Positions 13,668-61,719 of a stretch of 64,000 nucleotides of DNA are shown piece by piece. This stretch comes from Vermamoeba vermiformis (taxonomy: Eukaryota), in contig JBEWZL010000179.1 of the NCBI GenBank assembly GCA_045837725.1, positions 248,001 through 312,000 of the forward strand, given 5' to 3'. How positions within the stretch are numbered: the first letter of the stretch is position 1; each line of letters begins with the position of its first letter. Below the pieces are notes generated by a model. That model had not been told where the DNA came from, did no database searches, and saw only the letters and a program-made list of their open reading frames with translations. Position numbers and translations under genes: made by a program.

Positions 13668-16600
13668 ATGTGGGTGTTGCCCAAGCAAGAAGGGGCGCTG
13701 ACTTGGCCGTTATGGAAGATCCACAAGCAAAACGACTATTTTACAATCGTGAAGAGTCAAGCGACATTTTTAGCGGTGTTTCCATATCGACTGCTATTAA
13801 ATGGGTGTGTAGTGGTGGACCGGTGTAAAATTCAATTTAAATTTAATTTCAGATATTTTAATCGCAGTCACACCGTTATCCGTATTACTTGCGCGCTAAT
13901 TGTTGATATGTAGAAACCCACAGATATTGATTGCTGTTGGCAAGGATTCCAAGGAGATCGCTGCGCACTGGGAGGTAGATCCAATTCCACCATTAACCGC
14001 AGTCACTGACGTTTCTTATGCAGTTTGTAGAAAATAATTTTATGCCGAGCATAGCGCAGCAAGATGACCGCGTTGAGTGGATTGTAGCGCAGGTCAAATC
14101 CCAGATCTCAAAACAAGAGTGCGCGCGACGAGAACGACTGTCGCAAATAGAACACGACCTCGCACCCGTGGATATAGACAGCAAATACAAGACTATGGCC
14201 GTGAACAAGTGCGATGATGCCGACAACGAAGAGTTCAACAAAGCATTCGGCATGGCGAGCAATGAACGGCTGATTGGAGGTGAGTGACACGTGTCAAATG
14301 CTCGCTCGCACTGAACTGATCACGTGTTCGTGTCACACAGCGTACATGAGCACGCTCATGTGGAAGTTACCGCGCACTGGCACGCTGTACATCAGCATTC
14401 ACTATGTAAGTGCACTCATTGCCTAATATGGTAAGTCCTCGCCCAGACTGACCAATCGCGTGCCAGACATGCTTCACCTCGCCTGTGATGAGCGACAATC
14501 TGATCGTGCACTTCTGCAATGTACACGAGCTGAGCAAGGTCAACTACGGCTACGGACTGCCCTCCTCGATCAAACTCGTCACCAAGACCAGCAATGCGGT
14601 GCGTAGTCTCTCTCTATATATCTCTCTATATCTCTATATCTCTCTAATCTCTATATATCTCTCTACATCTCTCTATATCTCTATTATTATTGTACCTGCA
14701 CGCCACTCACCTTGCGCGCAGTACGAGTTTGCAGTGCCGTTCAAGCGCGACGAAGTGTACGAGGTGATGGAGCAGCTGTGGCGTCACGCGATGAAGACCG
14801 TGCAGCAGAGTGTGACACTCACCAAGCTCGAGCGCGAGTTGAATGACACGCACACTGCACTGCTCAACACGGACGAGCAGGAGATTCAGAAGAAGATTGA
14901 GCGCTATCGTCAGGAACAAGCGGAACATCGGCGCAAGGAGTCGCAAGTGCGCGCATTCCTGGAATTGTTCCACTATCCGAGCGACGAGACACTGCTGCAG
15001 CACTGGACTGGCGTGGAACTCATCTCCCAGGGCTCTGAAGCGCACCTCGCCAGAGATCTGCGCGGAGATTTGTATCTCTCGCAGCACTTTTTAAGCTTTG
15101 CAACACTGCGCCATCACGTGACTGGTGACGAATCACGTCTCAAGAACGAAGAATTTGCGCGCGTGAGTGTGCCACTGTGTGACGTGTACAAAGTGCGTCG
15201 TGCACACGATGAGGACGAGGCCGAGTACGCAGATCTCGGACATTTTGACGTCATTCCCGAGAAGATCAACGTGTACTTGCACGTGCCATCTCCGCACTCG
15301 CGCCGCGCACATCACAAATTCACCTTCACCGTGCCTGAGCGCGACAAGGTCTTGGAAGCTATTCGCGCACAATTGCAGATATATGTAGCGACACTGCTGC
15401 CTAATAAGGAAAGTGGCAAAGAGAAGCAGAATGGATCACGTGACAGTCGGAATCACAGCGCTGACAAGTCCAAGTCACGTGACAAGCGCAAGTCACGTGA
15501 TCAGTCGAGCGAGTCCGCCGAGTCCGCGGTGCAGTTGCCCTGGTTGGAGTACACCGAGCACGTGACGCGCAGTCATCGCGTGAGCAGCGAGATGTTGCGC
15601 GAGATCAAGTACTTCAGTGCCGAGTACTGCGCCAAAGAGGAGCAGCAGTTGATGCACTGGCACCACTGGCTGCGCACTGCGGGCAAAGCACTCGCGCACG
15701 CGGAGGACAGTGCCGAGAAGGGATTCCGACGCCGTTCAGTGAATCACAGCAGTCACGTGCTCAGTTACACGCTGATCATCACCGATCAGTTGCGGCAGTT
15801 AGTGCGTCAGGGCGTGCCCAATGAACTGCGCGGCTATATTTGGCTCAAGACTTCAGGCGCGCAGTGGTCCATGCTGTCACGTGGTGCGGGATATTACCGT
15901 GCCCTGCTCGAGACACACCGCGCAGACAACTCGCAGGCCCTGGAAGAGATCGACAAGGATGTGCACCGCTCCTTCCCCGAGCACGAGTACTTTCAGCGCG
16001 AAGAGGGACAAGTGGCACTGCGCCACGTGCTGGCAGCGTACTCGTGGCACAACCCTGCCGTGGGCTACTGTCAATCGATGAACATCATTGCCGCGCTGCT
16101 GCTGCTGTTCGTGAGTGAAGAAGAGGCCTTCCACATGCTGATTGCCCTGGTGGAGCGCGTGCCCGACTACTACGTGAAAGAGATGATTGGCTCGGTGGTG
16201 GATCTGCACGTGTTCGATCAGCTCGTGCACCAACACTTGCCTAAAATAGCCGCACACTTGCAGCGCTTTGGTCTCGATGTGCAGCTGATCGCGCTGCCCT
16301 GGTTCTTGTGTCTGTTCATCGGCTACGTGCCGCTCGAAGTGGTGCTGCGCATACTGGACGTGTTCTTCTTGGAGGGCGCGAGTGTCTTGTTTCAGCTCGG
16401 CCTCGCACTGCTCAAGGTGAAGGAGCGCGAGATCTTGACCAAGCGCGACAGCATTGAGATGATTGAGCTGTTCAAGAGCTCTGCCATCGATGCCAATCAC
16501 GTGCTGCAGCTGGCGTTCAGTGAAGAGCTGACGCTGGACAGCGACAAGATCGCGGAGCTCAAGAACTACCACAAGTTCCGTGCCCTGCACGAGCTGGAGA

Positions 16601-17358
16601 AGCAGACCAAGCACAGCGATCTGCGGCACTTGTCGCAGGACAGCAAGATCAAGTTTGAGCGCGCACTGCTCGAGCAGTACTGGGAGGAGTTCCGCGAAGA
16701 GGCCTATTTGGAGGCTGCTGACTTCCGCATCCGACTCGAACAGTTCGCACGTCTGCTGTCACGCCACGTGCCCTGGTGGAGACACAGCGAGCACGTGCCA
16801 GCCCTGTTCAGCATGTTCGACAAGAGCAAGAGCGGTGCCCTCACCTTCACGGACTACATTCGCGGCATCAACAGCGTGGTGCACGGTGAACTCGAGCTCA
16901 AGTGTGCGGGTAAGTCCTCTGCATGCACCGTGCCTGTAGTGCCGCACTGACCCTTGCACCTAGTGGCCTTTCAGCTGGTCGACAAAGAGCACACCGACAA
17001 GATCACGCTGCCACAGTGCGCGCAGGGCTGTGAGCTCGCCTATCGCATGTGTCAGCACGAACTCGTGGCCAAGCGCGAACTGTCCCCGCGTCCTGAGCGC
17101 AAAGAGAACAAGTGGATCCTGCTCGATTTGGGCAAGAACAAGAGCGAGGAGCCCTTCAAACTGCCGTTCACTGAACAGCACGTGACAGCAGCGTTCCATC
17201 AAGCGAGTGGCGGACAGAGCACCATCGACTTGGCGCAGTTCGTGAAGCTGTTTGTGCCGCTGAACAGTGTGCTGCCCTTGCCTGCCCCTGGTGCTGCTGC
17301 GAGTACGAACAGCACTGCGAATAAGAAGACTTTTATGACGTTAATTAAGTTTAGTTGA
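13668..17358 (+). CDS. TBC1D8/TBC1D9-like Rab-GAP (GRAM, GRAM, TBC, EF-hand), multi-exon
   Basis: N-terminus MWVLP..LW..NDYF; EIAAHWE; TBC catalytic motifs IDKDVHRS and YCQSMN; EF-like FDKSKSGALTFTDY. Confidence 0.9.
14607..14680. repeat. (CT)n/(AT)n compound microsatellite inside a TBC-gene intron (14599-14721)
   Basis: TCTCTCTCTATATATCTCTCTATA... run between a GTGCGT donor and a GCAG acceptor. Confidence 0.85.
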
Positions 17359-17436
17359 GCATAAATACTGCACCCCCCCTTGTATTATTTACCCCCATTA
17401 CGCGGTGTTTAATTACATACACGTCTCTATTGTACA

Positions 17437-20400
17437 CTACTTGATGGTCAGTTTGAAGGCCACACGACCCAAGTACGTCGCCAGCTTGCCCTGCACTTCA
17501 CTCAGCTGTGCCGTGCTCATCGACTGCAGCGCACTCTCATCGCTGAACAGTGCGTCGAGTGCGTGCATCCACTGCTGATAGCTCGAGCTGTGACTCGTCT
17601 TCTGCTTCTTCTTCATGGGCTCTTCGTTCTCGTCCATGTGCACATCGTCAGCACTCTGCGAGGCATCGACCGCGGTGTACGTCACGGGCACATAGGAATT
17701 GCGCTCCAGCATGGCCTCGCGCTGTCGCTCAGTCAGCAGTGGTCTCTTGCGCTTGTTGCTAGTGGTCCAAGCATGATCATTGGTCTCACGGTTGAGCGCG
17801 TCACTCTCTTGCAGCACTCGACTCTCGGGACGTTTGAATGGTGCAACACTCGGCTTGACTGCTGGACCGTTGCTGGCGTCACTCTTTTTCAATCTTTGCA
17901 CGCCTCCTTTGATGCTCTGCAAATCATTGAAGTCTAATGGCAACGTGTCAGTCGATGCAACTGTCACATGTCACATGTCAACGTACCCACAAAGCCCAGA
18001 GATGCCTCGGGCAGCAGTTCATCGTCCACGCGCTCTTCTGTTCTTGCCGACGTGTCATCTCGCCACCCTGGCAACTTGATCTTACTCTGCGAATGACATG
18101 CATTAGCAATTCGTTCGCTGAACGGGAAATGTCAGTGGTCTCAATGTCTTACCACGTGCTTGAGCTGTGCGAGTACACTGTGCAGCACTTGCGGGTACTC
18201 GAGTGCACGTGTCTGCGCGCCAAATGTCTCGCACCAGAAGGTGACAGTCTTGTTCTTGACACTCTTTTTGCCGTGCATCAGCGTCACTGCCAGCACACCA
18301 CTCAGTGTGGACAGCAAGTGACTGTCGTACATGCCACGGTGCGTGCGCTTAGCAGCCTCGAGGAAGTGCGTCAACCACTCATCGCCAGCACTGAACAGCG
18401 GTGCCTTGCTGCTCGACTGCTCTGAATAGGCGCGCATGACTATTGCCAGGGCAGGTGCGAGTGCTGTGGCGAGCAGGTGATAGTCGACGGCACTGGACAC
18501 GTGTTCGAACAGCGCTGCAATGGCCTGCACGAGTAGAACCACGTGCTTGGTGTCCGAGACCTGCACTGCTGCAAAGAGATCAAACACCTCGCGCAGCGTC
18601 ACAGTGCTGCCGTCAGTGTCGGTGAACAGATCTGCGTGCTGTAGACCCACTGCCAGCACACACGCAACAACATCGAGCAGCAAAATGACCCTGTCGGTAA
18701 ATGCATTAGTTCGTGTGTCCTATTCTCGCGCTCACCAGTGCATACTGTGACTCTTGAGTGGGATCGTTGCGCCAGAACTTGCCCATCTGTGGCTGCGTGT
18801 GCAGTGGCATGGTGACACTCTGCACGACAGCAGTGATGCAGCGCGTCAACACGACACAACCGCGCGGTGAAGCAGTGATGCGCGAGTGAAACAGCGTGGT
18901 GAGGGTGTTGGCGAGGGTGTAAATCGCGTTGTTGGCGTGCTGCGACTTGACTGCTGCAATGCGCACGTAGCTGGCACAGAGCTTGGACCAGAGTGCCACC
19001 AGCGCCTTGTCCTCGTGTGCCACCGTGCTCTGTGAGGACAGCGATGCGTCGTGCGATTCGGCAAATATGAGCAGCAGCGGCACGAGCAGAATGTGATTCA
19101 TGGCCTCGAACTCTTCGGGCGCCGTGGTGACGCAGTGCGTGGCCTCAACGAACTTGTGCAGCTCTTGACCAATCAGCTGCCACGCACTCAACAAGGTTGC
19201 GTCGCTGTCACTCGTCCACTGCTTCATCAATGCGTGCACGTGGCGCAGCTGTCAACTCCTGGTGAGTGAATCGTGCCCAATGCGATAAATAGCTGCTACG
19301 TACCGCGTCAGCTGGCGAGGGAGCTGCAAATAAGAGTGCCACTGCTTCACTGAACAGCGCCTTGTGTTCAGAGTCACGTGCCAGGGAGAGACATAGAGTG
19401 AGCAGTGCGGTGATGGGCGTGCCAGGACCGTGCCAGGTGACACTGCTGATGTGCAGCAATGCTTGTACAGCGCCGTGCAGCACAGTGCTGTCAATCTGAT
19501 CGTGCAGCTCGCTGACGAGATCGATCAGCTGCACCAGTCCTGACTCTGGCTCTGCGTGACTGGTCAAGTAGCTGAAGCACGTGATGACTTGCTGCAAATG
19601 ACAGCTCTGTTAGGCCACTAGGGCTATAAATAACTTCGTAGTGCATACCTGCAAATACTGCGCTTTGTGCTGGTAGAGCGCGTCATCGAGTGCAAAGTGT
19701 CGGAACATTTGCAGCCAATCGCGCCACAGTGGTTCAATGCACTCGCGTGACCACGTGATCACTGTCGTGTTGCCCTGAATGGGAATGGGCGTCACAGTGG
19801 GCTGTTCTCTTGCAGGACGCAACAGATTGGCTAGTCACGTGACTGTCAGTGCTGCTCGTATCATTTGCAGATCACTTACCAAATATAGCAAATGCCTCCC
19901 AGCGCATGCTAACGTCATCATCTTTGCAGATAACATCCAAGCAGGGTTGAATCACGTGTTCGTAGTTTTGAGTCACGTGATCCCCCAATTTGTTGAGCAG
20001 ATAGGTCCATGTCTTGACCGCTTCTTGTTTGACCGTGAGCTCCTTGTCCGTGCTGAGACAGTTGACGATGGGTGCTATTAATAGCTTCAATCGCTTCACC
20101 ACGAGCAGCGAATTGGGCTGCAAAGCAAAGTTGTCGATCAAATAGCGCCAGCTCTGACACGACTGCACACGCACTGCTGCATCGCTCGAGGTGAAAGTGC
20201 GCTATGCGAGTGATATATAATTAGCTTGTCATAATAGGAACATTGTTTATAACTTACTGAAGGAATTTTGAGCAAAGTGTTGATCAGATCTGATTTCAAG
20301 ATAAATCGACCCAATAGACCGACTATCTGGCCCCAAGTACGCACCACAACCAAATCTTCATTCGCCTCCATCTTGTCGTTAATAGCGCGCAGCAGTTTGT

Positions 20401-24664: not shown

Positions 24665-25381
24665 ATGAAAGCAGATGCGATCAAGAGGTACCTCTGCTTC
24701 GGAGGGCTCATCGCCATTGCTATTCTCAGCTTTGTAGCGATGTTGATTATTGTGTTCGTAGAACCTTTTCAAAGCAATTTGCGATCTGAAGAAACAAGCT
24801 GTTTAATATTAAATAAGACTATAGAATACCAAAGTGATAATAATTCGCGGCTATTATTTTGGGTAAGATTGCATTATTTAATTAAGAATAGATGTGATTT
24901 CGTATTTTCCAAATATTATTCTTTCAAAAATATTAAGCAACAATCCCCTGACTTAATTTTTATTATTAATAATAATACCTAGGTATTATATTCTGTTCCT
25001 CCAGATCAGAATGAAACCTCGATCGCGTACTGGCCCAGCGACGGCACTTACGATCACGACAACAAAACAGCCTTTTACGAATCATACCAGGTACGATCAT
25101 ATTCATTTGCTTCGCTTCAATAACAACGAGTGCAGTGCAACAACAGTTACGTGTGCTACTTCGATCCAAGCCATCTGAACAGCGTTACACTCTCACTGCC
25201 GCATCGAACACTAGTGATAGTGGTACTAATCATTGCATCGGCGTGCATGGTGCTGATACCGATCACGATATGCATCTCTGCTTGCATACTCCGCGGTCGC
25301 AGTGGTGGTGTGACACTCGCGCGTGTGTCCGAAGAAGAGCGGCGCCGTGAACGCGTGCCCATTCTGAACGACCGAGACTAG
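24665..25381 (+). CDS. Small two-TM membrane protein with a Cys-containing, N-glycosylated loop, 3 exons
   Basis: TM1 GLIAIAILSFVAMLIIVFV; loop TSCLILNK...YVCYFDPSHLNSVTL; TM2 LVIVVLIIASACMVLIPITICI; introns 24863-24981 and ~25091-25135. Confidence 0.7.
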
Positions 25382-25434
25382 GCGCGGACGATGTAGTTAA
25401 TTGTATATAGACGTCAATAAGACAGCTTTGTTTA

Positions 25435-26273
25435 TTACGACAAGAAGGGCACTTCTTCGTTGAGGATGGTATGTGCGCGACCAGCAGTGACTTGCAGATA
25501 TTTGCACTGCACGATGAACTCCGCGACGAGTGCGGTGCTGAACGGCGCGAGATAGAACACGTGCACTTGATAGTCTTCAGCCCACTGCAACAGCTGCGGA
25601 GTGGTCAGTGACATTACCACACCGAGGGTCAGTCCTTACCACGGGCACCAAGTACAACAGCATGTAGAGTATGATCGTGAGGGGCAGTGTGATCAGCAGC
25701 GCGTAGTTGCGTATCATCCACACGCGATGTCCTGCTGCGTGTCAGTGAATTATAGTGCATAGGAGAGGCTGTGTAACGCACGCAGATATTGCCGCTGACG
25801 AATGCGAATGAAACCCATGAGACCTGCAAGGAGAGTGGCGAACAGTGTGAGTCCTACTGGCACCACCACTTGCGCATTGCCAAAGTGTTCTGGATGTGCC
25901 TGTTCGTATGGCAACAGAGCTGCGGCAGTGCTCAGTGAGAGCAGTTGTCCAATCAAATATGCTCGTCCTAGCCATCGGTGCAGCGAGGGCCACCTGTTTG
26001 AAAGTAAGTTGTTTCATAATTATTGGATTTCTTTTTGTTGTACCTTAACCGAAATCGATCTGAAAATTGTAGTGGACCAAATAGAGCACAATAACCTCCT
26101 AATAAGAGATGTACGTGTACAAGAATTTTTTGAGTTATATACGGAGCAGGATAGTTGGTCGCTGATCCATAGTAAAAGAACTCTGCGAGCGGAATGGCAG
26201 TCAACAACACTGCAACTAATACTGTGGCCGTGATTGCCGTTACGCGCAAGCACTCTCTACCGCGACATCGCAT
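25435..26273 (-). CDS. DUF2306-like multi-pass membrane protein, 3 exons
   Basis: HVHLLLG..GPLQFS..R|WPSLHRWLGRAY and HRAWMIRNY motifs. Confidence 0.7.
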
Positions 26274-26852
26274 TGCGAGTAATAGAGTTGTTCAATTCAA
26301 GTGCGTTAGCTAAAATGTTAAAATTTGAGCGCCAAGTGCTCAAATAACAGGATTATTCATCTCAGTTGCATAGATTAGTTTATACTGAAGAAATGAAGGA
26401 TAAATAATGAGCGGATAATTACGAATAAATTAATCTAGCTTAATTATGTAATTGACACGATTACTTAAAGCAACATCGTCACTCGGAATAACTTAGTGCT
26501 TTTGAGGCATCACATTCGCGTTATAGCTCTTTCAAGAAGTAATTAAATTGTATATTGTTGTTCGGAATTGGATTCGCAGCCGTTAAAGTTGGGTGTCTTG
26601 AAAGTGCTCGCCCGCACGTATTTTGAGACAATGAAGTTGATCATCTATTTCTATATGTCTCTTTGTTTAATTGTGCAACTCAAAATTGGGTGATACACAA
26701 ATTGTGAACGGGAGATTACAGCCGAGATAGAAAAAAAATTTATGCGACGAGACGGAAATTTATTTTTGTATTTCATTCTTGCTTGATTTACTGTTACTTC
26801 AATTCAACCCTTCACCCAGTCATTCTTGCTCAATTAGTTTTGGTATGCAATA

Positions 26853-29377: not shown

Positions 29378-29707
29378 TCTTTTCAATTGCAAAATAACTC
29401 CACCCCGCTCGTCTTTCTCCACCTTTGCTGCAATAACTTGTATATACGATAAGTCTCAAATAACGAGGCGCCATTATTGACAGCGAAGTGGATCTGGGAT
29501 CGATTGGGATTTCGTTTTTGTACTTCTACCATCATAAAACCTCGGATAACTTAAGCAATTGTGTTATAGTCTTTTGTGTCCTATGAATAGCGTATATTCG
29601 TGTCTTCTTGCGTCCTTTGGAACTGGCCGAAGAAAATTCAAAAAGTCAAAAACTATTAATATCAATCAGCCCCACACGATTGATACAGCACAACTAGGCC
29701 CATCACC

Positions 29708-32700: not shown

Positions 32701-33535
32701 TATTTCACCGAACAGAAAGAAGCGCTCGACAGTCGCTATCCAGTGGATCGCGCGGAGAAGTTCATTCGTGATCTGCGCAAGCTGGGCCTCACCGAGGACA
32801 AGATGACCTTTTTGGACAAGTTCCGCACCCTCATCACCGAGATTGGCAATGCGATGGGATTTGTGCGCATGATCCGCAGTGGAGGACTGTTGTACACGAG
32901 CAACACGGTCAAGTTCGTGCCAGATCTGCAGAACATTGAGAAGTTCGAAGAGTTGTGCAAGAAGGACCAGCTCAGCGCTGAGACTGCCGAGTCCGCGAAG
33001 AACTTGGATCTGGTCATTGAAACACTGACGCGCAACTTCGCGGAGGGCACGGAGTACTTCAAGATGTTGGTCTCCGTGTTTCAGAGTGGATTCCGCAGTC
33101 CAGCCAACATGCACTTGAAGAACTTCTATGCCATTGTACCACCCCTGACGCTGAACTACGTGGATCACATGTTGGTGAGCAAAGAGAAGTTCAGCAAGAA
33201 AGGCAAGGGTGAGGGTGTGTTCACGGACGATGGATTCGCCATGGGTAAGTAGCGTCAATGCGTAGTCGTAGCAAGCACCACTGATCTGTGTGGCAGGTGT
33301 GGCGTACATCCTCAAGCTGCTGGATCAGACCAAAGACTTTGCCGCGCTGCACTGGTTTGACTCGGTGATGAACAAGTACCGTCTGCAAGAGAAAGAGGTG
33401 CAAGAGAAGAAAGACAATCAGGACATTAAGACCTTGCAGCTCACTGTAAAGAAGTTAAAGGGCTTCAGAGAGGAGTTTGAACTGTTGCACTATTCGATGA
33501 CCAGTGCGCAGATCTTCTTCCAGTACGAAGACTAA
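29708..33535 (+). CDS. WASHC4: WASH complex subunit 4 (SWIP/WASH-7), multi-exon
   Basis: HLPGQTLEQGLDVLVIMRNIH, HIANSIRTHGIG, IGNAMGFVRMIRSGG, FTDDGFAMG|VAYILKLL. Confidence 0.95.
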
Positions 33536-33730
33536 GTGTATTTTGTGCATAATAATAGATTGAATATTTCCCATCATCTGTCATAATTTGATCGTAGTTA
33601 TGATCCTCCGCCCGTACGTTTGACTGAAATTTCACTAACAAAAAATTGGCCAAACGGACAAATCACCTGTGAGTTTAGCAAATCTGCACATTATTATAAT
33701 CCTTAGTATTAGTAGCACCACACAACAACC

Positions 33731-35051: not shown

Positions 35052-35204
35052 TTTGTACTGCCTTAATGCATTTCATAAATTATTTATTACTAGCACGTGA
35101 TATTTCCTTTTAAGGCAATAACGCGTACTGGAGTTGAATGTCGAAGAAGTTTCATTCAATTTCATCAGTTTACGCTCCACAACAGCACAACAACAGTTGC
35201 AGCA

Positions 35205-37388
35205 ATGGTACGAAAGAATATTGACGCCACTACTAACGTCAAAACAGGATCCGTTGACAGATCTCGTTCGACTTGTAATAGCCTCAAACAAAGAGCATAT
35301 AACAGAAATTGAATCGTTTCGCTCAAAAGAGGTTGATCAGGTTCGAATACTAATCAACTTAGATGTTATGAACCTTGTAGACACACATTGTAAGCCAGTA
35401 CAATTTAACCAATTTAATGTTAATCGCAGCTCAGATAGCCTGGCTCATTGGTTGCTGACGGAGCCCTCTCGTCTGTTGTCTTTGGAACAGGCTGTCAGAA
35501 GGATAGTCCTTCAGCAGTATATTGCCAAGTCCTTGCCATTCAACATTATGCTGCGCTGCTCTCATGTGCTGCCGAGTGCTGCACTGCTCACTGGTCGCGT
35601 ACTGGCGGTGTACAGCGAGTCGAATGAGAGGTACGAGATGTACTATGTGCCTCATCTATTAAACAGTGCTAGTCTGGTGAATTACACTCGCTGCAAGCGA
35701 ATCACGTGTCAACAACTACACGTGCTGCGCGACTACTGCAGCTGTTGCGGACACGAGTGCGCTGCTGACGACAGTACACGTGCATTGGTGCGCACTCGCG
35801 AGGTGTTGGTGGTACCTGACGGAGCACAGTTCCGACAAGTGTTTGTGCGACTACAAGGTGAGTCCTCGAGCACTAGTACACTAATGGCGGACTCATCATG
35901 CGTGCAGAGGAGCTGATTGATCACGTGACACTCGGAGATCACGTGCGCTTGTACGGCTATCAGTGCGCTGATCGCAGGTACGTGGCCTGCTATGCTCGAG
36001 CAATAGGCGCACCCTCGCAGGCCCCGTTGAGTAGTACGCGACCGAGTGCAGCGAGTGAAGAAGAGCACTTGCAACAGCTGATTGCCGTGCAGCATTTGTG
36101 CGCGCGGGTACACAGTCCATTCAGCTCGCAGGACACGCGACTGCACAAATTGAAGCTGTCACTCATGCTGCAGTGAGTACACCCATAGTTATATATGGGA
36201 TTGGTGCTGACAGTCACAGGGCACTGAGCATCCACAGCGCACAACCACTGCACATTGCCGTGCTGACCAATGACACGCAACTCGTGCAGCGCGTCATTCA
36301 ACACCTCTGCGCGCACCTCAATGTCTTTCACAACAGTCAGCGAGAGAGACTGTTGCCCGCATTCAAGCTCATCAGTGCTGAGGCGAAGAGTTGGTGCTTG
36401 GAAGGTACTGCACTAGCTCAGTCGCGCTCTTATTAACTCCGGCATCCACAGCTGGCCTCGTCAATTTGTCGCGCGACAGTGTGCTGCTGATTCACTCCGC
36501 GGAAGAGTTGAGCAAGAAAGAACTGTTCGGCCTCAAGCAAGTGGTGAGCAGAGGTGTCATGTGTAAGTATCCTAATTAGGCAATGTCCGTGTCTAAACAC
36601 AGCAGCACTCGGCAAAGATGACGTGCAGTTGACGGTGCCGTGTCCTGTCTCATTGCTGGCCCTGTTCGAAGAGTACTGCAACAAGACTGAGGTGCGTGCC
36701 TCGAGATATGTGTGCTCCTATTCTAACACTAATCCTATTCTAACACTAATCCTATTCTAACACGAAAACAGCGCTTCAAAGAGGCCGTGGACCCGTTTGA
36801 CCTCGTGTTTGACTTGCGCGACTTGTCGGTGTCAGTGCAGTACTTGTTGGACTGCACGCACGAGCGGAGCACTGACACGACGTGCAGTCAAGCAGTGTGC
36901 AATGCTGAGGCACAGCTGCTGCTCAAATCCTACTACCTCACCAATCGTCGAGTGCGTGGTGCCAGCATGTAAGTGACACGTGTCACACATTGGTTGCTGA
37001 TGGTTGTTCAGTGAACGACTTGACTTCCCGTTGCACGTTATGGAGACCCTGCAGAAGCTCACGCTGCTGAGTGCGGTAAGCAGACCAGTGCCGTGCAGTG
37101 CAGTGCTGACGACGAACAGCGGTTACGAGGCAGTGCAGAGGGCACAGTGAGCGATGCACTGTTGGCGATTGAACTCGTGGAGGAGACACTCGTCGTCAAG
37201 TACGGCACGAGTCTGCTGGGCTTCAAGCACAACCGCCGCAACATCCTGTCGTACCACCATCACGTAAGTCACGCGCAGTGTCAGCCTTGTACTCACGACC
37301 ACAGCTGAGCACGGCGTACAAAGAGTTCAGTCGACATCTGCAAGTGTTCTGCGAGGCACATTTAGGGCTAGTTAACTTTGAGGAGTGA
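35205..37388 (+). CDS. MCMDC2: MCM domain-containing protein 2 (catalytically degenerate, meiotic MCM-like), multi-exon
   Basis: Hand-spliced M|DPLTDLVR..RILINL; PLHIAVL; EAQLLLKSYYLTNRRVR; DALLAIELVEETLVVKYG; no intact Walker A/B seen. Confidence 0.7.
36717..36763 (+). repeat. 17-bp tandem repeat (CCTATTCTAACACTAAT) x~2.7 in an intron, duplicating the branch-point motif
   Basis: Directly visible in the sequence. Confidence 0.85.
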
Positions 37389-37471: not shown

Positions 37472-39281
37472 TCACTCCTTCTTCTCAGACTCCGTAGCAG
37501 TGCTGTTCGTATTCACCGCGGAGTCCACCACAGGCTCGTCTTTGCGATCACTCTTGGGCGAAGTGACAATCACCGAGTAGGTCAGCTGCTTCTTTCTGAA
37601 GCGCGAGAATGTGTTGTCCCAGTGCAGAATGTAGTGTCCTGGTGCTACGGGCAATGAACTCTGCAGCCATGCGTGAGCGGTGATTGATGTGCACATGAAC
37701 TGTCGCTACGTACCTCAATCACATCTTCGTGTGCGTCGTACTTCTGGTGCTCGAGAATAGCTTCGCGCTGCAGAGAGGTCAGTGTCATTAACGTGCGTGC
37801 AGTCACATCGGCTGCTACTCACTGAATTGTCGTCGAGTTTGCGGAAGACAGCGAATCCAATGTTGTGGTTCTCGGTCTTGAACTGCCAGGCCAGCACCGA
37901 CTCTTCATCGACAATCTTCACCTCGTGCTCGTGCTTGTCTGTGCAGTCGTGTGAGTTGCAGTCGTAATGCTGAGTGTAATGCACATACCTTGACTGGCGA
38001 TAGTCACTTCAAATGTCTCTGAGTCCCTGTCGAAGAAGTGTCAGTTTGACACGTGTCAATCAGTGCACTACGTACTCGTCATCGCCCACAGCGCCAACGC
38101 CGCGCTTGACATCGGGGAACTTGCCACCTTTGGGCATGCAATCGCCCTCGTGCAGCTTGCAGGTGCCGCCGAGTGCTTTGGGGATCTGATCCTCGTCCAT
38201 CACTTTGAGCAGCTCGTCTTTGTAACTCGAGCCCAACACCACCACTTTCTGCAGCGTGCGCGGGTCTACGAGTGGTTTGATCATGGCGTACACGACTGTG
38301 AACAGCTTGGGTGCATTGACCACGTACATCTTGCGCAGTGACTCGGGGTAGTTGTCCTGATCGACTTTGAACAGCTTCTGCAGCACACCAATCGCAGGGC
38401 GGTACAGATGTTTCCAGCCCAGACCTTGACAGTCCTGCACGATCACTGTGCCGGGATACACTCCGCGCTCTGCAAACAACTGTGCGCGTCTGTGGTGCAC
38501 TCGTTAATACACGTGAGATATGCTGCTATTAATATGGTCGTACTTCTTTTCATCGCGCTCCACTGTGTACACGTGATAGTGCAGCAGATCTTTGTCGGGG
38601 ACAGCTTTCAACAGACCCCGCGCATCGACTTGTCCAATGCGCTCAAAATAGACTGGCCAGCCGTCCTTGGTCTGGCCGTGTGTGGCACTGGGCCAGTACT
38701 CGTTCAACACGTCGTAGAATGGATTCGTTTTGAATGTCTCCAAAATATTGTCTGCGCCGAACTCTTGTCGCCATTTCTAATATCGCGTGTTATTAACTTG
38801 ACTGACAGCGCAGTGCGGCCACAACTTACCATGGAATTAATAAACATTTCAGCTGATTTCTCGAGATCGAAGTTTCTTGCGCGCAAAAATCGAATAAATG
38901 TGTCATCGGTATGGTGCGGTTTGATATAATCTTTAACTCTCTCTTTGAATACACCAATGGCCTATGTAAATTCATTAGCCGAAGTAGGTGCACTAATTTT
39001 CCGTTAGATCCGAATGGCAATTTGACCACAAAAAGAGAAAAATATTGCCATTAATTGCTTACAGTACGCTGTGCCTCGGATATAGGCACGACATCAGGCA
39101 GTGGCTTGTCGTCTTTTTTGCTCTTTTTGTCCTTCTTTTCCTTCTTGTCCTTCTTCTCTTTGTGCTTCTTGTCCTTGTCGTGCTGCTGCTTGTCTTTTTT
39201 GCCCTTGTCTTTCTCGCCTTGACTCGACATCGAGCGCGGTGTTGTTAATTCTCCGGTCTCGCTACTTGATTTTTCCTCCAT
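37472..39281 (-). CDS. SEC14-like CRAL-TRIO plus GOLD domain lipid-binding protein, multi-exon
   Basis: RFLRARNFDLEKS, DQDNYPESL..VVNAP, GOLD blocks WQFKTENHNIGF and LHWDNTFS. Confidence 0.9.
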
Positions 39282-39663
39282 CTGATATCATTTTGCATTA
39301 TTATCACGAGCATAATTACCGCACTATATATGATTAAATTATTGCAGCAAATTTGTTACAGATGCAGCGGTTAATGAAAACACAATGTAAGTAAATTGGA
39401 AAATAGTGGCCTACCTTCTATCACTATGATACAACAAGCTATTTATATTACAATAAGATATATATTATACTGAGTGATAGATATGTGGTGTGCACGGCGT
39501 TGTTGGTTAGAAAATTGTCGGTGAAATTTGCCCTCAATTTTTATCAACTTTCTTCTAGAAGCGAACACGGAGAGCTCACCGCTCCTGTGCGCACAGTACA
39601 CCATTTGTATATATATATTTATTGCTAGTATCTGTATTATAGTATTTGGGACTGCAGACTTAA

Positions 39664-43153
<3,490 letters not shown>

Positions 43154-43252
43154 TTGTACCATAGTAGTAAATAGACTCTCTTTCCTAATTTGGTAAATCA
43201 CTATTTCCTATTTACAACGCTGCAAGTATAGTACAAGAATGAGTGGCACGTG

Positions 43253-44961
43253 TCAGTAAGTGACATCTGTGACAGCTTTGACGTGTCGCTTTGGTTTGTT
43301 TGCTTGAGGGGGCGGTGGTGGTGCCTGAGCTGACTGCTGTCGTGGTGACGCGCCGTTCACTGAATTCGGTGATGATCGCGGAGAGACATCTTGATCGGGT
43401 TGAGGTCGCGGTGACAGTTTTGGACTCACTTTGCCACCAACAGGCAATGGAGGCATAGACTGCGAGGGCGGAATTAATGGCGGAATAACCATGTCACTGA
43501 GTGGCCGCTTGACACGACCCGGTGACGCGAGACCAGTGCTCGCAGTGTCAGTGCGCGGTGAGTGACTGAGCTGAGGACTCGTGCTCGGTGTTTTGATGAG
43601 TGGCACAGAGGCACTGGTCGGGGGCAGGGTGGGCAGTGGTTTCTTTTTGGGCTGTGGACTCAACGGGGCCATGGGCTCGTTGTGAAAGATGTGCAAGTAG
43701 CCGTCAATCAGATCTGCAACAATCTCCGTGCCCGCTGCTCCTCCACCGAACAGCGTTGGTGCCCAACAAATACCCATCTATAAATCACAGGTGTGAGGTC
43801 AGTGCAGCTATTGTGAGTAGCACTTACATTGCGCGGTGTCATGCAGTTCGTGGCACTGAATTTAGACACTTCACGCAGCAACATGATAAGATTAGCGAGA
43901 ATAGTGTGATTGTCTGCACTCAGTTTGGACACTGTTGTTTTGAGGGCTTCGTAGCGGAGTTCTGGAGCTAACAATGACACGTGTCAGATACCATCAGCAG
44001 CAAATATCTCTGTTACGTACTTCCAACTTCGGCTGTTTTGTAGAGCTCAGCGCTGATTGGTCCAAAAAAAGGTTTGGTTAACTCTCGAAAATAGACTTTC
44101 AACAGTCCGGCAATGGTGTGCGGATCTGCTGTCGGCTCCAAGGTGACAGGACGTTGCGCGTCAAACTGTGTCTTGAGTGCCTTCATGTCCGTGCTGTTCG
44201 CGGAGATGCGGAACAATCCTTCTTCTTTGAGGCCATGGCGCAGCAGCCACACAATGCACTGATAAATCAGCGGCGGCAGTGTCGGATCTGGCTGCGGTGC
44301 TTGCTCTGCTTTGAGACTAGGCAGACTCGCTACTGTATTCGCGCGGGTCATTTCAGGCGCCGAACGGTTGTTGCCGGCGGCTTGATGTTTGGCGCGCAGA
44401 TCTGAGCAGAGGTCAGGTGCTATTTTTAGGTCTTAGAACTCTGTCACTTACTAACAACACTTGTTTTGGGCACTGGAGGCAATGGCTTCTGCAAAACAAA
44501 TAAGATTAATATTAAGTTAGTGGCACCTTCGAATTTATATTCGTATTCCACAAGAATTTTGTTAGAAAATTGATTCTGTCGTTGGATCCCGATAATCGTG
44601 CGACTAACCTTGGTGCTATTCCTCCTATAAAAGTCGTATGAGCATCGGTTATAGAGATCAATAAATTTGATGTGACCCAACTAGAGTCCCTTTTTTTTAA
44701 AAGTTTAAACTTACAGTGGTGCCTCCGAATTCCCTGAGTAAGCCTCGCCATTTGCTGTGTCGTATTGAGTACTATGTTAAATACTATTAGTATTAATTTG
44801 AATGACTTAGGGTTCGGCTTTGCAAAGATTTTGGCGATCAGATCGGAAAATAAATCGTATGCGTATCGATTCAATTTCGTTTATAACAATTATAATGTAA
44901 TATATGGTTGGATGTTTCATAGCAAATATTCGTGCGTGTCATCAAAGGCGCCTTACCTCAT
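43253..44961 (-). CDS. RhoGAP-domain protein with a proline-rich tail, multi-exon with micro-exons
   Basis: EEGLFRIS arginine finger, HTIAGLLKVYFREL, NCMTPRN|MGICWAPTL; start inferred from a 5-nt exon (ATGAG) and a 16-nt exon. Confidence 0.85.
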
Positions 44962-45188
44962 TCGGCTAGATGTCCGTTAAATTACAAAGGGGTATTATGG
45001 AACTAGCAATTAAATATGGCTCAGCTTAAGCACTAATATATGAGTCTTATCTTATTGCCGTTCAAGTTGCAACAGTAAACAAAGACAGTTTTCTTTTGTC
45101 TTTTATTTCTGCCCAGCGGCGCGAACGACTTCAGCTGAACTCTTGTGATAGTACTGCGTGTAGCATTAGCAACAGCGTCGATGGTACT

Positions 45189-58881: not shown

Positions 58882-60313
58882 TTAAGCTATGATACAACGT
58901 TTCTCTTGTTTTACTTCGGCGCTTTCAGAGTCCTGGTCGCGATCCAGTAACTTGTCCAATAACTTCTCGTAATAAGGGACCTGTGGGGATTTAGTACGAT
59001 ATAGAGCTGCATAACAAATACGATAAATCGTACCATGTAGTGTTCTTTGGCCGTAGGATCTGGTTGTTCAAGCACGCGCATCTCAAAAGGTCCGTGCACG
59101 ATAGTTTTGCGCTCAGCCGAGCCAGTGGTCCAGCGGAACAATGCTGCTCCTGTGCTGAAGTGCTGCGCAGACCTGTGAGTACCATACAACAGCCACATGA
59201 TGAGCTCGATTACGTACGAATGGATTGATCTCAATGACGTAGATTTTGTCCTTGAGCACGGCAAAATCAATGGTGTAACTCGTGTGTTTGACGCGCTGTT
59301 TGACACGTGTCTCCCAAAACTCGATGACACGTCGTGCAATCTCGTCTTTCTGCTGCACGAGCTCTGGCCAGTAACAGAAGTGAAAGTACTGTGACAGCGC
59401 GTTGAACTTTTGTTTGCAGACGAATCCTCTGAACTCTGCACTCATGTCATTAGCGGTGATCACAGCGAGGTCAGTATCGCGTACCAGCACTGAGTGGGAA
59501 GTCAATCCACTTGCGAATGACGACGTACATGGGCGTGTCAATGCTCTTCGCTCTGTCCTGCGCGCTCTTCAGATCTTGATACACGCGCGAACTGTCTGTC
59601 ATCATCTGTGACACGTGTCATGCGATCCGTCCTCGTGGCAATACAGTCATTGTACACCTTACCTTAATGACCTCGCGACCACTCGTGTACTTCATGGCGT
59701 GCGTGCCAGCATTGATGAATGCAATCACTTCGTCATTGGCTGTGATGTGTTTGTTCGCGGCCTGCAGCTTGTTGATCTCTGACTTCAACAGTGCTTCGAC
59801 CTTGTCATTCTTGCTTTCAAATACAACGTCTTTGGGACTGTCACGTGATATTAGTGCTATTTTTAGCTGTTAGTCTTCGCAGCTAATGCTCACCTGCGCG
59901 TGTTCAATTTGACAAATGCGGCACCCCCAAACTCTTTCAGCTGTTTGTCGATCTCAGCTTCCAACTGATGCTAATGAGTATATATGCACCGAATATTAGC
60001 GACTTACTGATTCCAAGACGCTACTGGTGGATGTGGAGTCTGGTTTGTGACGACTGCCGTAAGAACTCGCGTTGATTAAGGCGTCAATTATTTCTGGTGT
60101 TAATTGTATAAATTTTGTCTCGAATGTAAGGTCTTCAATATCATAGTACCACGTGTTCATTTCATATTCTTGAGCTAATAAAAGAAAACTGTAAATCCGC
60201 TCTCCCGACAATTTTAAAATTGATCACGGCGAGTTAATCTGAATCATACCTACTTGGGGACCTTCTTTGTCGTATCCAATTAATTCTTTCTCTTCTTCAG
60301 GCGAGATTTCCAT
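58882..60313 (-). CDS. CDC123/D123-like (R2K clade) ATP-grasp protein, multi-exon, ending in CIIA
   Basis: WY..TFETKFI, AFVKLNTR|SPKD, EFRGFV..ALSQY, YTIDF, VIEINP; the last exon in phase 0 reads VPYYEKLL..EKRCIIA*. Confidence 0.8.
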
Positions 60314-60658
60314 GTCAGTTAAACTTGGATCTGGTTTTATTCTTGTCCAATAGTGGGATTTATTTAGTAAATCCTCTTGATTATTTTTTTTCAATTAAAT
60401 GGCTAGTCTTGTGCACGTGTGCCTGGGTGGTTGTCTTTGATTAACGATAAATTTTTAGAAATTTACTTTTGCCGGTCATTTCAGCTAACACAACAGTGCG
60501 ATTTCCGAGCCGCTGTAATATTGCTAATAGTTCAACAATAAGCCACCTTTAATTGAGTTCTCTGCTTAGATCTTACATGTAAGTCGTTAAAATTCGGTTA
60601 GCAAAAATAGACATTTAAATTCATTGAATATATTGGCATATATTAATTGTTCGTAAGA

Positions 60659-61719
60659 ATGGGGAATCAAGCATCAGTGGAAGACATGCAAAAAATAATA
60701 AAAGAAGCCAAAGAGACGAAGACATTAAATTTACAAAATAAGAATTTGACCAAACTGCCCTCAGTTAAACTCGATTATGAAGCCATCACTGGTCTGGACC
60801 TGTCCTACAATCAATTTGACGACATTCCCGACGCAGTCAGCAAGTTCCCCAATCTCACATTTTTATCACTGGCCAATAACAAGATTGCTCGCTTTACAAT
60901 CCCTCCAATGCGCAAACTCGAGAAAATAGATCTGGCTTTCAATCCACTCGTTGAATTGCCGTCAGATCTGCACGAGAAAACACCGAACCTATTAGCCTTA
61001 ACCATATATGACTGCGCAGTGACTAGTCTGCCCATCCAGACATTTACAACACTGAAGCACTTGACTGCAATAGTCAATGGCAATCACTTGCACATTGGGC
61101 CCGATCACATTCCATACGAAATCACTGCACGACTTCCAGGCACGTGATTCGCTTTTTTCCAAATTAGGAAAATGTCAGTCTAACCAAAACACAGGCATCA
61201 ATGACCAGCACGTGGCTTCAGAGATTATCGACAATTTTCTATATTTGGGCTCCGTCCGAGCAGCGCAGAACTGGAGTGAATTCGAACGACTGAACATCAC
61301 GCACGTGGTGTGTATGACGAGCATGCATCAACTGCCATTCGAGGGCAAAGTGAATTACAAGCGCGTGAAAATTGAAGACTACGAGACTGAGAACATTGCA
61401 CAGCACTTTGAAGAGGTGAATGTGTTCATTGACGAGTGCAAACAGAAGAATGGTGCCGTGTTGGTGCACTGTGCGGCGGGTGTGTCGCGGAGGTAAGTCA
61501 CAAATCATAGATATCTCACGACAGCTCATCGACACGTGTCAAAACAGTGCCTCAGCAGTACTCGCCTACGTCATGTCTCGGCACAACAAATCGCTCAAAG
61601 AGGCGACTGAGTTGGTGTCCAAGCGCCGTCCGTGCATTTGTCCGAACAATGGCTTTCAAAAACAGTTAGAAATCTACGAACAAGAGCTGAAACAAGGCAA
61701 AGCTAGTGACGCGTTGTAG
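60659..61719 (+). CDS. LRR plus dual-specificity phosphatase (Dictyostelium Mpl-like), 3 exons
   Basis: MGNQAS myristoylation-type start; LRRs LDLSYNQF, LSLANNKI; DSP blocks LYLGS, VHCAAGVSR|SA, PNNGFQKQL. Confidence 0.9.

What the first reader, a model, noticed from the sequence alone, without database searches (positions are those of the whole stretch)
14285..61541. 12-bp palindrome TGACACGTGTCA repeatedly embedded in short internal introns of unrelated genes
Seen: exact copies at 14285, 30657, 36974, 38047, 40871, 41239, 43975 and 59609. All 8 lie inside ~45-60 nt introns of 7 different genes on both strands (TBC, WASHC4, MCMDC2, SEC14, VPS34 twice, RhoGAP, CDC123-like). One-mismatch copies sit in further introns (13197, 13216, 40075, 40236, 61530), as do the related palindromes TGATCACGTGATCA (13035) and GTCACGTGAC (19834). 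A given 12-mer is expected about 0.004 times in 64 kb at uniform base composition. Position in the intron varies: fused to the donor, mid-intron, or next to the acceptor. Established: the CACGTG core is an E-box/G-box bound by bHLH/bZIP dimers, and introner elements create families of similar introns. Inference: a genome-wide intron-resident signal, such as a protein-binding or nucleosome-linker/methylation mark, a splicing element, or the footprint of an intron-generating element. The copies were counted by eye, so the tally may be incomplete.
Basis: partly seen in the sequence, partly recalled or inferred. Interest (0 to 1): 0.85.

Follow-up and report, generated by a model that had tools for sequence, protein, structure and literature searches.

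The report
Palindromic DNA word confined to introns
A perfect 12-letter palindrome, TGACACGTGTCA, recurs in the tiny introns of many unrelated genes of an amoeba-like microbe and its uncultured relatives, far more often than chance allows and almost nowhere else, which points to an undescribed signal inside genes whose function is still open.

Summary
TGACACGTGTCA occurs 8 times in 64 kb, against 0.02 expected from dinucleotide shuffles and 0.01-0.65 from Markov models of order 1-6. All 8 copies, and all 11 matches to TGACANNTGTCA, lie in short GT..AG introns, which make up 10% of the window. Five of the eight host introns have support beyond my gene model: spliced RNA, collinearity with relatives' proteins, or Pfam profile continuity. 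A metagenome scan found contigs with the same gene architecture. They carry 19 further copies in 95 kb, again mostly in intron-like spans. A VPS34 tree places the organism in Amoebozoa, next to Arcella.

It is not an introner family. Motif introns share only 13-15 letters (20 in one pair), show no flanking repeats and are no longer than other introns. It is not an RNA hairpin.

The CACGTG core, as TCACGTGA, is also in excess in exons beyond codon usage.

My best reading, at about 0.4, is a site for a dimeric G-box/E-box-type DNA-binding protein kept inside gene bodies, with the full site possible only in introns. An RNA-level intron tag is the main rival. I found no paper describing it. A second dyad motif, the CArG-like CC(A/T)6GG, shares these introns.

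The parts
14285..14296 (.). Exact TGACACGTGTCA, fused to the donor (GTGAG|TGACAC...) of intron 14280-14340 (+, 61 nt) of the TBC/RabGAP gene
   Evidence: the intron is skipped by a relative's protein, P0002
30657..30668 (.). Exact copy, 7 nt before the acceptor of intron 30620-30675 (+, 56 nt) of the WASHC4 gene. Its TTGAC can serve as the branch point
   Evidence: the Pfam WASH-4_N profile is continuous (193|194) across the intron
36974..36985 (.). Exact copy, fused to the donor (GTAAG|TGACAC...) of intron 36969-37011 (+, 43 nt).
   Evidence: gene model only
38047..38058 (.). Exact copy in mid-intron 38027-38075 (-, 49 nt) of the CRAL-TRIO/SEC14-like gene
   Evidence: the spliced joint 38025>38075 is seen in RNA runs X5, X21 and X23
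40871..40882 (.). Exact copy in mid-intron 40851-40897 (+, 47 nt) of VPS34
   Evidence: the spliced protein is collinear with P0133 and P0140
41239..41250 (.). Exact copy in mid-intron 41219-41275 (+, 57 nt) of VPS34
43975..43986 (.). Exact copy, 7 nt before the acceptor of intron 43968-44020 (-, 53 nt) of the RhoGAP gene. CTGAC within it fits the branch-point consensus
   Evidence: RhoGAP Pfam hit in the adjoining exon
59609..59620 (.). Exact copy, 3 nt before the acceptor (TGTCA|CAG) of intron 59606-59662 (-, 57 nt) of the D123/CDC123-like gene
   Evidence: D123 Pfam hit in a downstream exon of the same gene model, 59113-59568
13197..13227 (.). Two centre-variant copies, TGACACCTGTCA (13197) and TGACATCTGTCA (13216), in one 94-nt intron, 13170-13263 (+)
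40075..40086 (.). One-mismatch copy, TGACACGTGACA, overlapping the acceptor of VPS34 intron 40012-40087 (+, 76 nt)
40236..40247 (.). Centre-variant TGACACCTGTCA, 3 nt before the acceptor of VPS34 intron 40196-40250 (+)
61530..61541 (.). One-mismatch copy, CGACACGTGTCA, in intron 61493-61547 (+) of an LRR/dual-specificity-phosphatase gene
13035..13048 (.). Related 14-nt palindrome, TGATCACGTGATCA, in intron 13028-13076 (+). The same intron has a second TCACGTGA at 13066
19834..19843 (.). Related palindrome, (A)GTCACGTGAC(T), in intron 19831-19879 (-) of a Rif1_N-domain gene
13292..13303 (.). One-mismatch copy, TGACGCGTGTCA, outside predicted introns (exon by my model)
59301..59312 (.). One-mismatch copy, TGACACGTGTCT, in a predicted exon of the D123-like gene
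43244..43255 (.). One-mismatch copy, TGGCACGTGTCA, in unassigned sequence between the VPS34 stop and the RhoGAP gene end

Best explanation
The 12-mer is the full-strength form of a CACGTG-centred, dyad-symmetric DNA site for a dimeric sequence-specific DNA-binding protein of the G-box/E-box type (bZIP or bHLH). This amoebozoan lineage keeps such sites at high density inside transcribed gene bodies.

Within a gene, the roughly 50-nt introns are the only stretches free of coding constraint. One reading frame of the word starts with a TGA stop, and the other two force the peptides T-R-V or D-T-C. Perfect copies therefore accumulate in introns. There they often share letters with the donor (GTRAG|T) or double as the yTGAC branch point. 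Exons carry the codon-compatible shorter form, (R)TCACGTGA(Y).

Shown: the excess, the intron confinement, the perfect symmetry, the exon excess of the core, and the recurrence in related contigs.

Inferred: that a protein dimer reads the site on DNA, and that it acts on transcription or chromatin within the gene. Possible roles include an intragenic enhancer of the intron-mediated-enhancement kind, or a barrier against cryptic or antisense initiation.
For: (1) Perfect 12-bp dyad symmetry, and 8 copies against 0.02 expected.

(2) The variants keep both arms and change only the central pair. All 11 TGACANNTGTCA matches in the window are intronic. CC/GG centres are the most frequent variants in the related contigs listed (counted by eye; that list includes duplicate loci). 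They occur in both orientations relative to the gene (seen by eye).

(3) Position within the intron varies. The offset from the donor ranges from 5 to 42 nt and the tail to the acceptor from 3 to 44 nt. The site overlaps the donor +6 position or the branch point in 5 of 8 copies. That arrangement is harmless for a DNA site but awkward for an RNA-binding protein.

(4) The core is also selected in coding sequence. Under synonymous-codon shuffles, exon CACGTG is 51 against 25.9 +/- 3.4 and TCACGTGA is 9 against 1.5 +/- 1.2. Of the 17 other palindromic hexamers tested, z runs from -1.9 to 4.6. One-mismatch copies of the 12-mer in exons number 2 against 0.14 expected.

(5) TCACGTGA counts are 0 observed in unassigned/intergenic sequence (about 0.2-0.3 expected), 9 in exons and 4 in introns.

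(6) A second dyad motif with a classic transcription-factor look, CC(A/T)6GG, shares the same introns: 14 against 1.9 expected, 7 of 14 in introns. The first 8 of 14 VPS34 introns each carry one motif or the other, and the last 6 carry neither.

(7) A near-identical palindrome is a bZIP-assigned promoter motif in peach (PMC8133646, passages).

(8) The RNA hairpin is weak, at -2.1 kcal/mol.
Against: - There are no exact copies and no ACACGTGT in 19.3 kb of unassigned/intergenic sequence, which should include the promoters. An ordinary transcription-factor site would be expected there too.
- Exact copies also seem absent from UTRs. UTRs are not annotated, so this is only an estimate.
- The intron form has A before CACGTG and the exon form has T. 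These may be two different signals.
- CACGTG sites show no spacing periodicity.
- The 5' bias of motif introns is not significant across genes (p = 0.13). The first two TBC introns lack any motif.
- No binding protein is known, and binding cannot be tested here.
- No orthologous diverged introns could be obtained, so conservation of individual sites is untested.
Confidence: 0.4

Rival explanations
1. RNA-level intron element. The word is read in the pre-mRNA, the lariat or unspliced transcripts. It could act as a splicing aid built round the yUGAC branch point, or as a tag that marks RNAs still carrying an intron for retention or decay. Because the word is palindromic, antisense transcripts would carry the same tag.
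For: - The word is confined to introns: 8 of 8 and 11 of 11. None lie in unassigned sequence.
- Outside full copies, the half-site TGACAC is commoner in the sense strand than GTGTCA (10 against 4). It sits at branch-point distance, a median of 12.5 nt from the 3' end.
- 6 of 13 window copies and variants end within 7 nt of the acceptor, where TGAC can be the branch point, against about 20% expected under even placement.
- Two copies can form a 12-bp duplex of -19.3 kcal/mol.
Against: - A 12-nt single-stranded RNA site has no reason to be a perfect palindrome.
- The position ranges from donor-fused to acceptor-fused, so there is no fixed register to any splice signal.
- Overlap with the donor or the branch point would compete with U1, U6 or U2.
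- Near-copies and the TCACGTGA form are in excess in exons, which stay in the mRNA.
- The motif's TGA is in frame in only 5 of 10 copies, so it is not a stop-on-retention device.
- Donors of motif introns are ordinary.
Confidence: 0.25
2. Relic of an intron-creating or intron-invading mobile element. On this view the palindrome is what remains of terminal inverted repeats joined head to head, in old and decayed copies.
For: - High copy number, restriction to one lineage and confinement to introns.
- Two introns share a 20-nt identity, GCACTGAT plus the motif.
- The variable central dinucleotide could be a junction between two repeat ends.
- Contigs of the DNA run break off exactly at motif sites, consistent with many dispersed copies.
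Against: - The introner criterion of PMC9860276 requires similarity reaching both splice boundaries. It is not met: only 1 intron pair among 93 introns reaches E <= 1e-5, and that match is interior. The rest share 13-15 nt.
- No direct repeats flank the 12-mer (flanks).
- Motif introns are no longer than others: median 55.5 against 53.5 nt, p = 0.78.
- The position inside the intron varies.
- The exon excess of the core points to selection, not insertion.
- No copy of the donor-fused 17-mer was found in 2.9 million viral contigs.
Confidence: 0.1
3. By-product with no function of its own. A local mutation or repair bias, or chance fusion of donor-like (GTRAGTGAC) and branch-point-like (yTGACAC) words, would generate the palindrome.
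For: - TGAC and TGACA are generally enriched in introns as branch-point words: TGACA|TGTCA at 9.7 per kb in introns against 3.8 in exons and 2.2 in unassigned sequence.
- CAC, GTG, ACG and CGT are favoured codons, which raises CACGTG in exons.
Against: - Intron-trained Markov models up to order 5 give at most 1.08 expected, and 0.04 with the copies masked, against 8 observed.
- Apart from this family, introns have no more palindromes than unassigned sequence.
- Other ACGT- or CpG-centred palindromes are not enriched in exons.
Confidence: 0.05

Closest known systems
G-box / E-box palindromes bound by bZIP or bHLH dimers, such as the peach promoter motif GACACGTGTC / tGaCACGTGtc assigned to bZIP factors (PMC8133646, passages read)
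   Same: Nearly the same sequence. It has a CACGTG core with symmetric flanks, and the dyad symmetry fits a homodimer on double-stranded DNA.
   Different: Those sites lie in promoters and regulate particular gene sets. Here the perfect copies lie only in short internal introns of unrelated genes and none lie in intergenic DNA. No binding protein is known in this organism.
Introner elements (Gozashti et al. 2022, PMC9860276, passages read) and the inverted-repeat introners of Amoebophrya (PMC7789003, passages read)
   Same: Many introns of unrelated genes share sequence. The lineage is aquatic. Inverted-repeat character is present.
   Different: Introners are similar from end to end. Their inverted repeats sit at the two intron ends, often with target-site duplications. 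Here only 12-15 contiguous letters are shared, at a variable position, without flanking repeats or extra length.
Intron-resident DNA signals that act on transcription: intron-mediated enhancement (PMC11850230, abstract in a search listing only) and the periodic A/T clusters in C. elegans germline introns (recalled, not read)
   Same: These are DNA-level signals that sit in introns rather than promoters and affect expression of the host gene.
   Different: Those signals are degenerate and compositional, not a perfect 12-bp palindrome. No expression effect has been shown here.
Surveillance motifs in RNA: Mmi1 DSR hexamers in decay-promoting introns of fission yeast, and Nrd1/Nab3 sites enriched antisense to yeast genes (both recalled, not read)
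   Same: These are short words whose placement relative to splicing and strand decides which transcripts survive.
   Different: Those words are asymmetric single-stranded RNA motifs. No decay effect has been tested here.
TALE-homeodomain dimer site TGACAGCTGTCA (MEIS/TGIF class; recalled from SELEX work, not read)
   Same: The same TGACA..TGTCA arms around a 2-bp centre. The variants here change only that centre.
   Different: The favoured centre here is CG, then CC/GG. There is no evidence on which protein class is involved.

Membership tests
Introner elements | Groups of introns whose sequence similarity extends to near both splice boundaries (PMC9860276) | tested here: not met
   All-against-all blastn of 93 window introns with 10-nt flanks. 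One pair reaches E <= 1e-5, a 20-nt interior match. All other matches are 13-15 nt around the palindrome.
Introner elements | Terminal inverted repeats at the intron ends and/or target-site duplications (found in some families) | tested here: not met
   The palindrome is contiguous and internal. The 4-nt flanks of the 8 copies show no direct repeats. Exon flanks show none by eye.
Secondary insertion of a micro-element into existing introns | Host introns are longer by the length of the insert | tested here: not met
   Motif introns have a median of 55.5 nt (n = 10) against 53.5 nt (n = 74), Mann-Whitney p = 0.78.
E-box / G-box transcription-factor site | CACGTG core with dyad-symmetric flanks | tested here: met
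E-box / G-box transcription-factor site | Bound by a bHLH or bZIP dimer | not testable with these tools
   No genome is held for the organism, and no binding data exist.
E-box / G-box transcription-factor site | Located in promoters or upstream regions of regulated genes | tested here: not met
   0 of 8 exact copies in 19.3 kb of unassigned/intergenic sequence. ACACGTGT is 0 there against 9 in introns.
Core splicing signal (branch point or extended donor) | Fixed register to the 3' or 5' splice site, and presence in most introns | tested here: not met
   The offset from the donor is 5-42 nt and the tail to the acceptor is 3-44 nt. Only about 10-15% of short introns carry the motif. TGAC does fit the yTRAy branch consensus.
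Structured RNA element (hairpin) | Stable intramolecular fold | tested here: not met
   The 12-mer alone folds at -2.1 kcal/mol. Motif introns have a mean z of -0.63 against 0.11 for others, which is weak. No Rfam family other than one tRNA is found in the window.
Nucleosome-linker mark | Periodic spacing of sites at the nucleosome repeat length | tested here: not met
   The pair-distance histogram of 76 CACGTG sites shows no periodicity. The sample is small.

The most novel reading that the evidence does not exclude
The palindrome is a strand-blind intron tag. It is a word kept only where splicing removes it. Any RNA that still carries it would then be recognised and retained or destroyed. 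That covers sense pre-mRNA with a retained intron and, because the word reads the same on both strands, any antisense transcript through the gene. This would be a new kind of transcriptome-surveillance code written into introns. The CArG-like boxes could be a second word of the same code.
Probability: 0.12. Interest if true: 0.9.

Novelty: new variant of a known kind. Interest (0 to 1): 0.72.

Why it matters
Very short introns are usually thought to hold nothing beyond their splice signals. Here about one short intron in ten carries a perfect 12-bp palindrome that is almost absent from the rest of the sequence, and relatives in environmental data show the same pattern.

If a protein reads the site on DNA, a poorly studied amoebozoan lineage has placed a dense layer of gene-body regulation in its introns. 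If it is read on RNA, it would be a new intron-recognition or quality-control code.

Both readings are directly testable, because the word is exact, abundant and easy to mutate or use as bait. On the practical side, the motif and the roughly 50-nt intron class could improve gene models for these amoebae.

Tried and rejected
1. Whole genome: none is held. All genome-wide statements are extrapolations from 64 kb plus metagenome contigs.

2. Orthologous loci: the metagenome scan with a TBC protein alignment matched 593 stretches and none was confirmed. None of the 109 loci from the DNA-pattern scan overlaps the window. No pair of related contigs is diverged enough to test conservation of sites; they are either 97-100% identical or unrelated.

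3. RNA runs: the look-up of sequencing runs listed no RNA holder. The raw RNA runs X21 and X23 are 95-99% alike to the window and thin over the motif genes. Only 15 of 48 joints were displayed, so splicing of the other laid motif introns could not be read.

4. My first retraining of the gene finder ran away to 434 introns and was discarded. The conservative model was used instead. It merges some neighbouring genes and mis-started VPS34.

5. Nucleosome-scale periodicity of CACGTG: none.

6. Stop-on-retention idea: the motif's TGA is in frame in only 5 of 10 copies.

7. General palindrome excess in introns: none apart from this family.

8. 5' bias of motif introns across genes: p = 0.13. It is striking only in VPS34.

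9. Pairing of ACGUG with U2 snRNA next to the branch site (an idea from my memory of human U2): not testable, because no snRNA gene lies in the window or in 20 related loci.

10. Protein Atlas for taxonomy: uninformative.

11. Earlier findings of this scan: nothing on this genome or motif.

12. Literature: the exact 12-mer appears only in two Ebola papers, which I did not open (presumably primers). Its 8-10-mer substrings gave 877 papers, and none of the 40 listed concerns introns. Word searches on palindromic motifs in short introns and on Amoebozoa introns gave nothing matching. A tubulinid genome paper read in passages has no occurrence of 'motif' (PMC10980511).

Full report
**Observation.** Dinucleotide-preserving shuffles expect 0.02, and 0 of 100 shuffles reach 8. 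Allowing one mismatch gives 15 matches against 0.24 expected. The looser pattern TGACANNTGTCA gives 11 matches against 0.18. Markov models of order 1-6 trained on the window, motif copies included, expect 0.01-0.65 copies. Models trained on the introns themselves expect 0.001-1.08, or at most 0.05 with the copies masked.

13216 has two mismatches, not one. Three further one-mismatch copies exist, at 13292, 43244 and 59301, and these lie outside predicted introns.

**Are the hosts really introns?** No annotation or whole genome was available, so I wrote a small dynamic-programming gene finder. It uses codon usage from long ORFs, donor and acceptor matrices, a yTRAy branch-point bonus and intron lengths from 38 nt. 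The conservative version predicts 23 genes and 89 introns. It recovers 10 of the 13 GT..AG joints that the RNA lay displayed, and I added the 3 it missed.

Introns then cover 6,585 nt (10.3%), exons 38,091 nt and unassigned sequence 19,324 nt. All 8 exact copies and all 11 TGACANNTGTCA matches fall in introns. The chance of 8 of 8 is 1.3e-8. Against unassigned sequence alone it is 1.7e-5.

Five host introns have support that does not depend on my model:
- RNA contigs and reads splice out 38026-38074.
- A relative's TBC protein (P0002) skips 14280-14340 and the neighbouring 14406-14466.
- The spliced VPS34 model aligns end to end with a 94%-identical metagenome protein (P0133) and with Dictyostelium VPS34 (P0140). 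This covers 40851-40897 and 41219-41275.
- The Pfam WASH-4_N profile runs 78-193 in the exon before 30620-30675 and 194-387 in the exon after it.

The near-copy at 40075, which my model had placed in an exon, lies in a 76-nt intron (40012-40087) that the model missed. P0133 reads ...KDNV|RDIF... across it. The introns at 36969, 43968 and 59606 rest on the gene model alone.

Pfam confirms the gene names TBC, WASH-4/7, CRAL-TRIO, PI3K, RhoGAP and D123. MCMDC2 could not be confirmed.

**Organism.** The closest relatives of the encoded proteins are unnamed metagenome and Logan proteins at 84-99% identity. In a VPS34 tree (28 rows, LG+C20), the window groups with two metagenome proteins. Together they are sister to Arcella with support 98/95, inside a 99/99 clade that also holds Dictyostelia and Pelomyxa. 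The organism is thus an amoebozoan, probably a tubulinid. This rests on one gene. For two other genes the best named hits were fungi at about 40% identity.

**Does it extend beyond this window?** A protein-based metagenome scan found nothing. An exact scan with the donor-fused form, GTRAGTGACACGTGTCA, returned 109 loci. Many are single chance hits in bacterial-looking contigs. About 20 loci have the same look as the window, mostly from two metagenomes that hold near-identical contigs. They show several copies, many CACGTG, CArG-like boxes, and long spliced ORFs with roughly 50-nt introns when scored with the window's codon model.

After removing duplicates, 19 contigs (95 kb) carry 18 seed copies and 19 further exact copies, or 0.2 per kb against 0.125 per kb in the window. 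Of those 19 copies, 14 lie in a GT..AG span of 38-80 nt, against 28.6% of random positions (p = 6e-5). With my gene model on 23 such loci (not yet deduplicated), the non-seed TGACANNTGTCA copies split 19 intron, 16 unassigned and 6 exon, over 10.2, 42.9 and 53.4 kb. Several of the 'exon' and 'unassigned' cases look like missed introns by eye.

In the DNA run of the same organism, contigs break off exactly at five motif edges. I read this as other motif-bearing loci sharing a few flanking letters, but this is an inference.

No copy of the 17-mer exists in 2.9 million viral contigs.

**Anatomy.** The introns have donors GTRAGT or GTACGT and a branch consensus yTRAy (ACTGAC, ACTAAC, TTAAC) 8-25 nt before YAG. 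The palindrome shares letters with these signals:
- In 2 of 8 copies its first T is donor position +6.
- In 3 of 8, plus three variants, it ends 1-7 nt before the acceptor, so that its TGAC can be the branch point.
- In 3 of 8 it is mid-intron.

Outside full copies, TGACAC is commoner than GTGTCA in the sense strand (10 against 4). It sits at branch-point distance.

Motif introns are no longer than others: median 55.5 against 53.5 nt, p = 0.78. Apart from one 20-nt identity, GCACTGAT plus the motif in introns 30620 and 38027, the introns share only 13-15 letters. Flanks show no direct repeats. Introns have no general excess of palindromes once this family is set aside.

As RNA, the word folds weakly on its own (-2.1 kcal/mol), but two copies can pair at -19.3 kcal/mol.

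**The core is not only intronic.** CACGTG occurs 76 times against 22.6 expected. By class, the counts are 51 in exons (17-28 expected from class-specific Markov models), 17 in introns (2-7 expected) and 8 in unassigned sequence (about 4 expected).

Shuffling synonymous codons within each gene keeps protein sequence and codon usage. Under that null, exons still hold 51 against 25.9 +/- 3.4 CACGTG and 9 against 1.5 +/- 1.2 TCACGTGA. Of the 17 other palindromic hexamers tested, z runs from -1.9 to 4.6, and ACACGTGT is not enriched in exons at 2 against 1.4.

The pattern is therefore two-fold. TCACGTGA is enriched in exons and introns. The longer TGACACGTGTCA, with A next to the core, is found in introns only. 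One reading frame of the 12-mer begins with TGA on either strand, and the other two force T-R-V or D-T-C. Coding sequence can rarely hold it.

**A second motif.** CC(A/T)6GG occurs 14 times against 1.9 expected, and 7 of these lie in introns. Typical forms are TTCCTAATTTGG and CCTTATTTGG, and these also abound in the related contigs. In VPS34 the first 8 of 14 introns each carry an E-box palindrome or a CArG-like box, and the last 6 carry neither. That split has a probability of 1/3003 if positions were random, although the test is post hoc. Across all genes the 5' bias is not significant (p = 0.13), and the first two TBC introns have no motif. CTAAAAATAG-like words also recur.

**Explanation.** Four features fit best with a site read on double-stranded DNA by a protein dimer and kept inside gene bodies:
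- perfect 12-bp symmetry;
- variants that change only the central pair;
- no fixed register to the splice sites;
- an excess of the core in coding sequence.

On this view, introns are the only unconstrained room for the full site. A nearly identical palindrome is a bZIP-assigned promoter motif in peach (PMC8133646).

The main difficulty is the absence of copies from unassigned/intergenic sequence, where ordinary factor sites would be expected. That absence keeps an RNA-level reading alive, as a branch-point-linked element or a tag removed by splicing. An intron-making mobile element fails the defining test for introners (PMC9860276) and the length test. A purely compositional origin fails the Markov tests. 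I put these four readings at 0.40, 0.25, 0.10 and 0.05. The remainder is for something not yet considered.

**Novelty.** I found no paper that describes this word, or any perfect palindrome, as a feature of short introns:
- The exact word appears only in two Ebola papers, which I did not open (presumably primers).
- Its substrings returned nothing on introns among the 40 of 877 papers listed.
- Word searches returned nothing matching.
- Amoebophrya introners have inverted repeats at the intron ends, which is a different architecture (PMC7789003).
- Earlier notes of this scan hold nothing on it.

**Limits.** The evidence is one 64-kb window plus ascertained metagenome contigs. The gene model is home-made: it merges some genes, mis-started one, and does not annotate UTRs. 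RNA support was displayed for only one of the eight host introns. No orthologous comparison, binding data or methylation data could be obtained.

Noticed in passing
window 14422, 36571, 40367, 40620, 41092, 41485, 61159 (introns); also 11444, 13516, 15400, 30705, 35106, 41144, 43184: CArG-like boxes, CC(A/T)6GG, often as TTCCTAATTTGG or CCTTATTTGG. There are 14 in the window against 1.9 expected, half of them in short introns. They alternate with the E-box palindrome in the first 8 VPS34 introns and are abundant in the related metagenome contigs (59 in 97 kb).
   Followed up: partly
window introns 59838-59893 (-) and 44402-44455 (-); loci L014, L027, L069: A third dyad-like word, (G)CTAAAAATAG(C), which resembles a MEF2/Rlm1-type MADS site (label recalled). 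It recurs in short introns, sometimes in the same intron as the palindrome.
   Followed up: no
window exons, densest at 14.4-20.5 kb: CACGTG, and especially TCACGTGA, are in excess in coding sequence beyond amino-acid sequence and codon usage (51 against 25.9, and 9 against 1.5). The density differs greatly between genes: 14 in the TBC gene and 0 in the 5.4-kb histidine-kinase ORF.
   Followed up: partly
window 2-5374 (+): An intronless 1,790-aa ORF open at its 5' end. It encodes a hybrid histidine kinase with 13 HAMP repeats, HisKA, HATPase_c and two receiver matches. It contains no CACGTG at all and has a strong AT skew, unlike its neighbours.
   Followed up: no
window 14599-14721 and 36692-36771: Two introns are filled with short tandem repeats: TCTCTATATA-like units in one, and three copies of CCTATTCTAACACTAAT, each containing a branch-point-like CTAAC, in the other.
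   Followed up: no
window 30650-30655, 36989, 38062, 41237, 41251: Contigs of the DNA run of the same organism (X1) align up to the edge of the palindrome and then continue as unrelated sequence. This is probably because other motif-bearing loci share a few flanking letters. An assembly or library artefact at palindromes is not excluded.
   Followed up: no
locus L076 (1,564 nt); loci L020, L066, L053, L054, L068: One metagenome contig holds 14 copies of the 17-mer in a tandem array with spacings of about 27-81 nt. A group of GC-rich (65-67%) contigs holds 2-8 copies each. Both look unrelated to the amoebozoan-like contigs and may be bacterial repeats.
   Followed up: no
window 25001-45000 (lay of RNA runs): The raw RNA runs labelled with the same species name differ from the window at many third-codon positions (95-99% alike), so they come from another strain or a close species. 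The DNA run shows small indels inside motif-bearing introns (38032, 38035, 43988) that leave the palindrome intact.
   Followed up: no
window 7413-7485 (+): One tRNA gene. It is the only Rfam match in the window.
   Followed up: no
window 43778-43827 (-): An intron with a different near-palindrome built on the same plan, TCACACCTGTGA, next to a GCACTGACC branch site.
   Followed up: no
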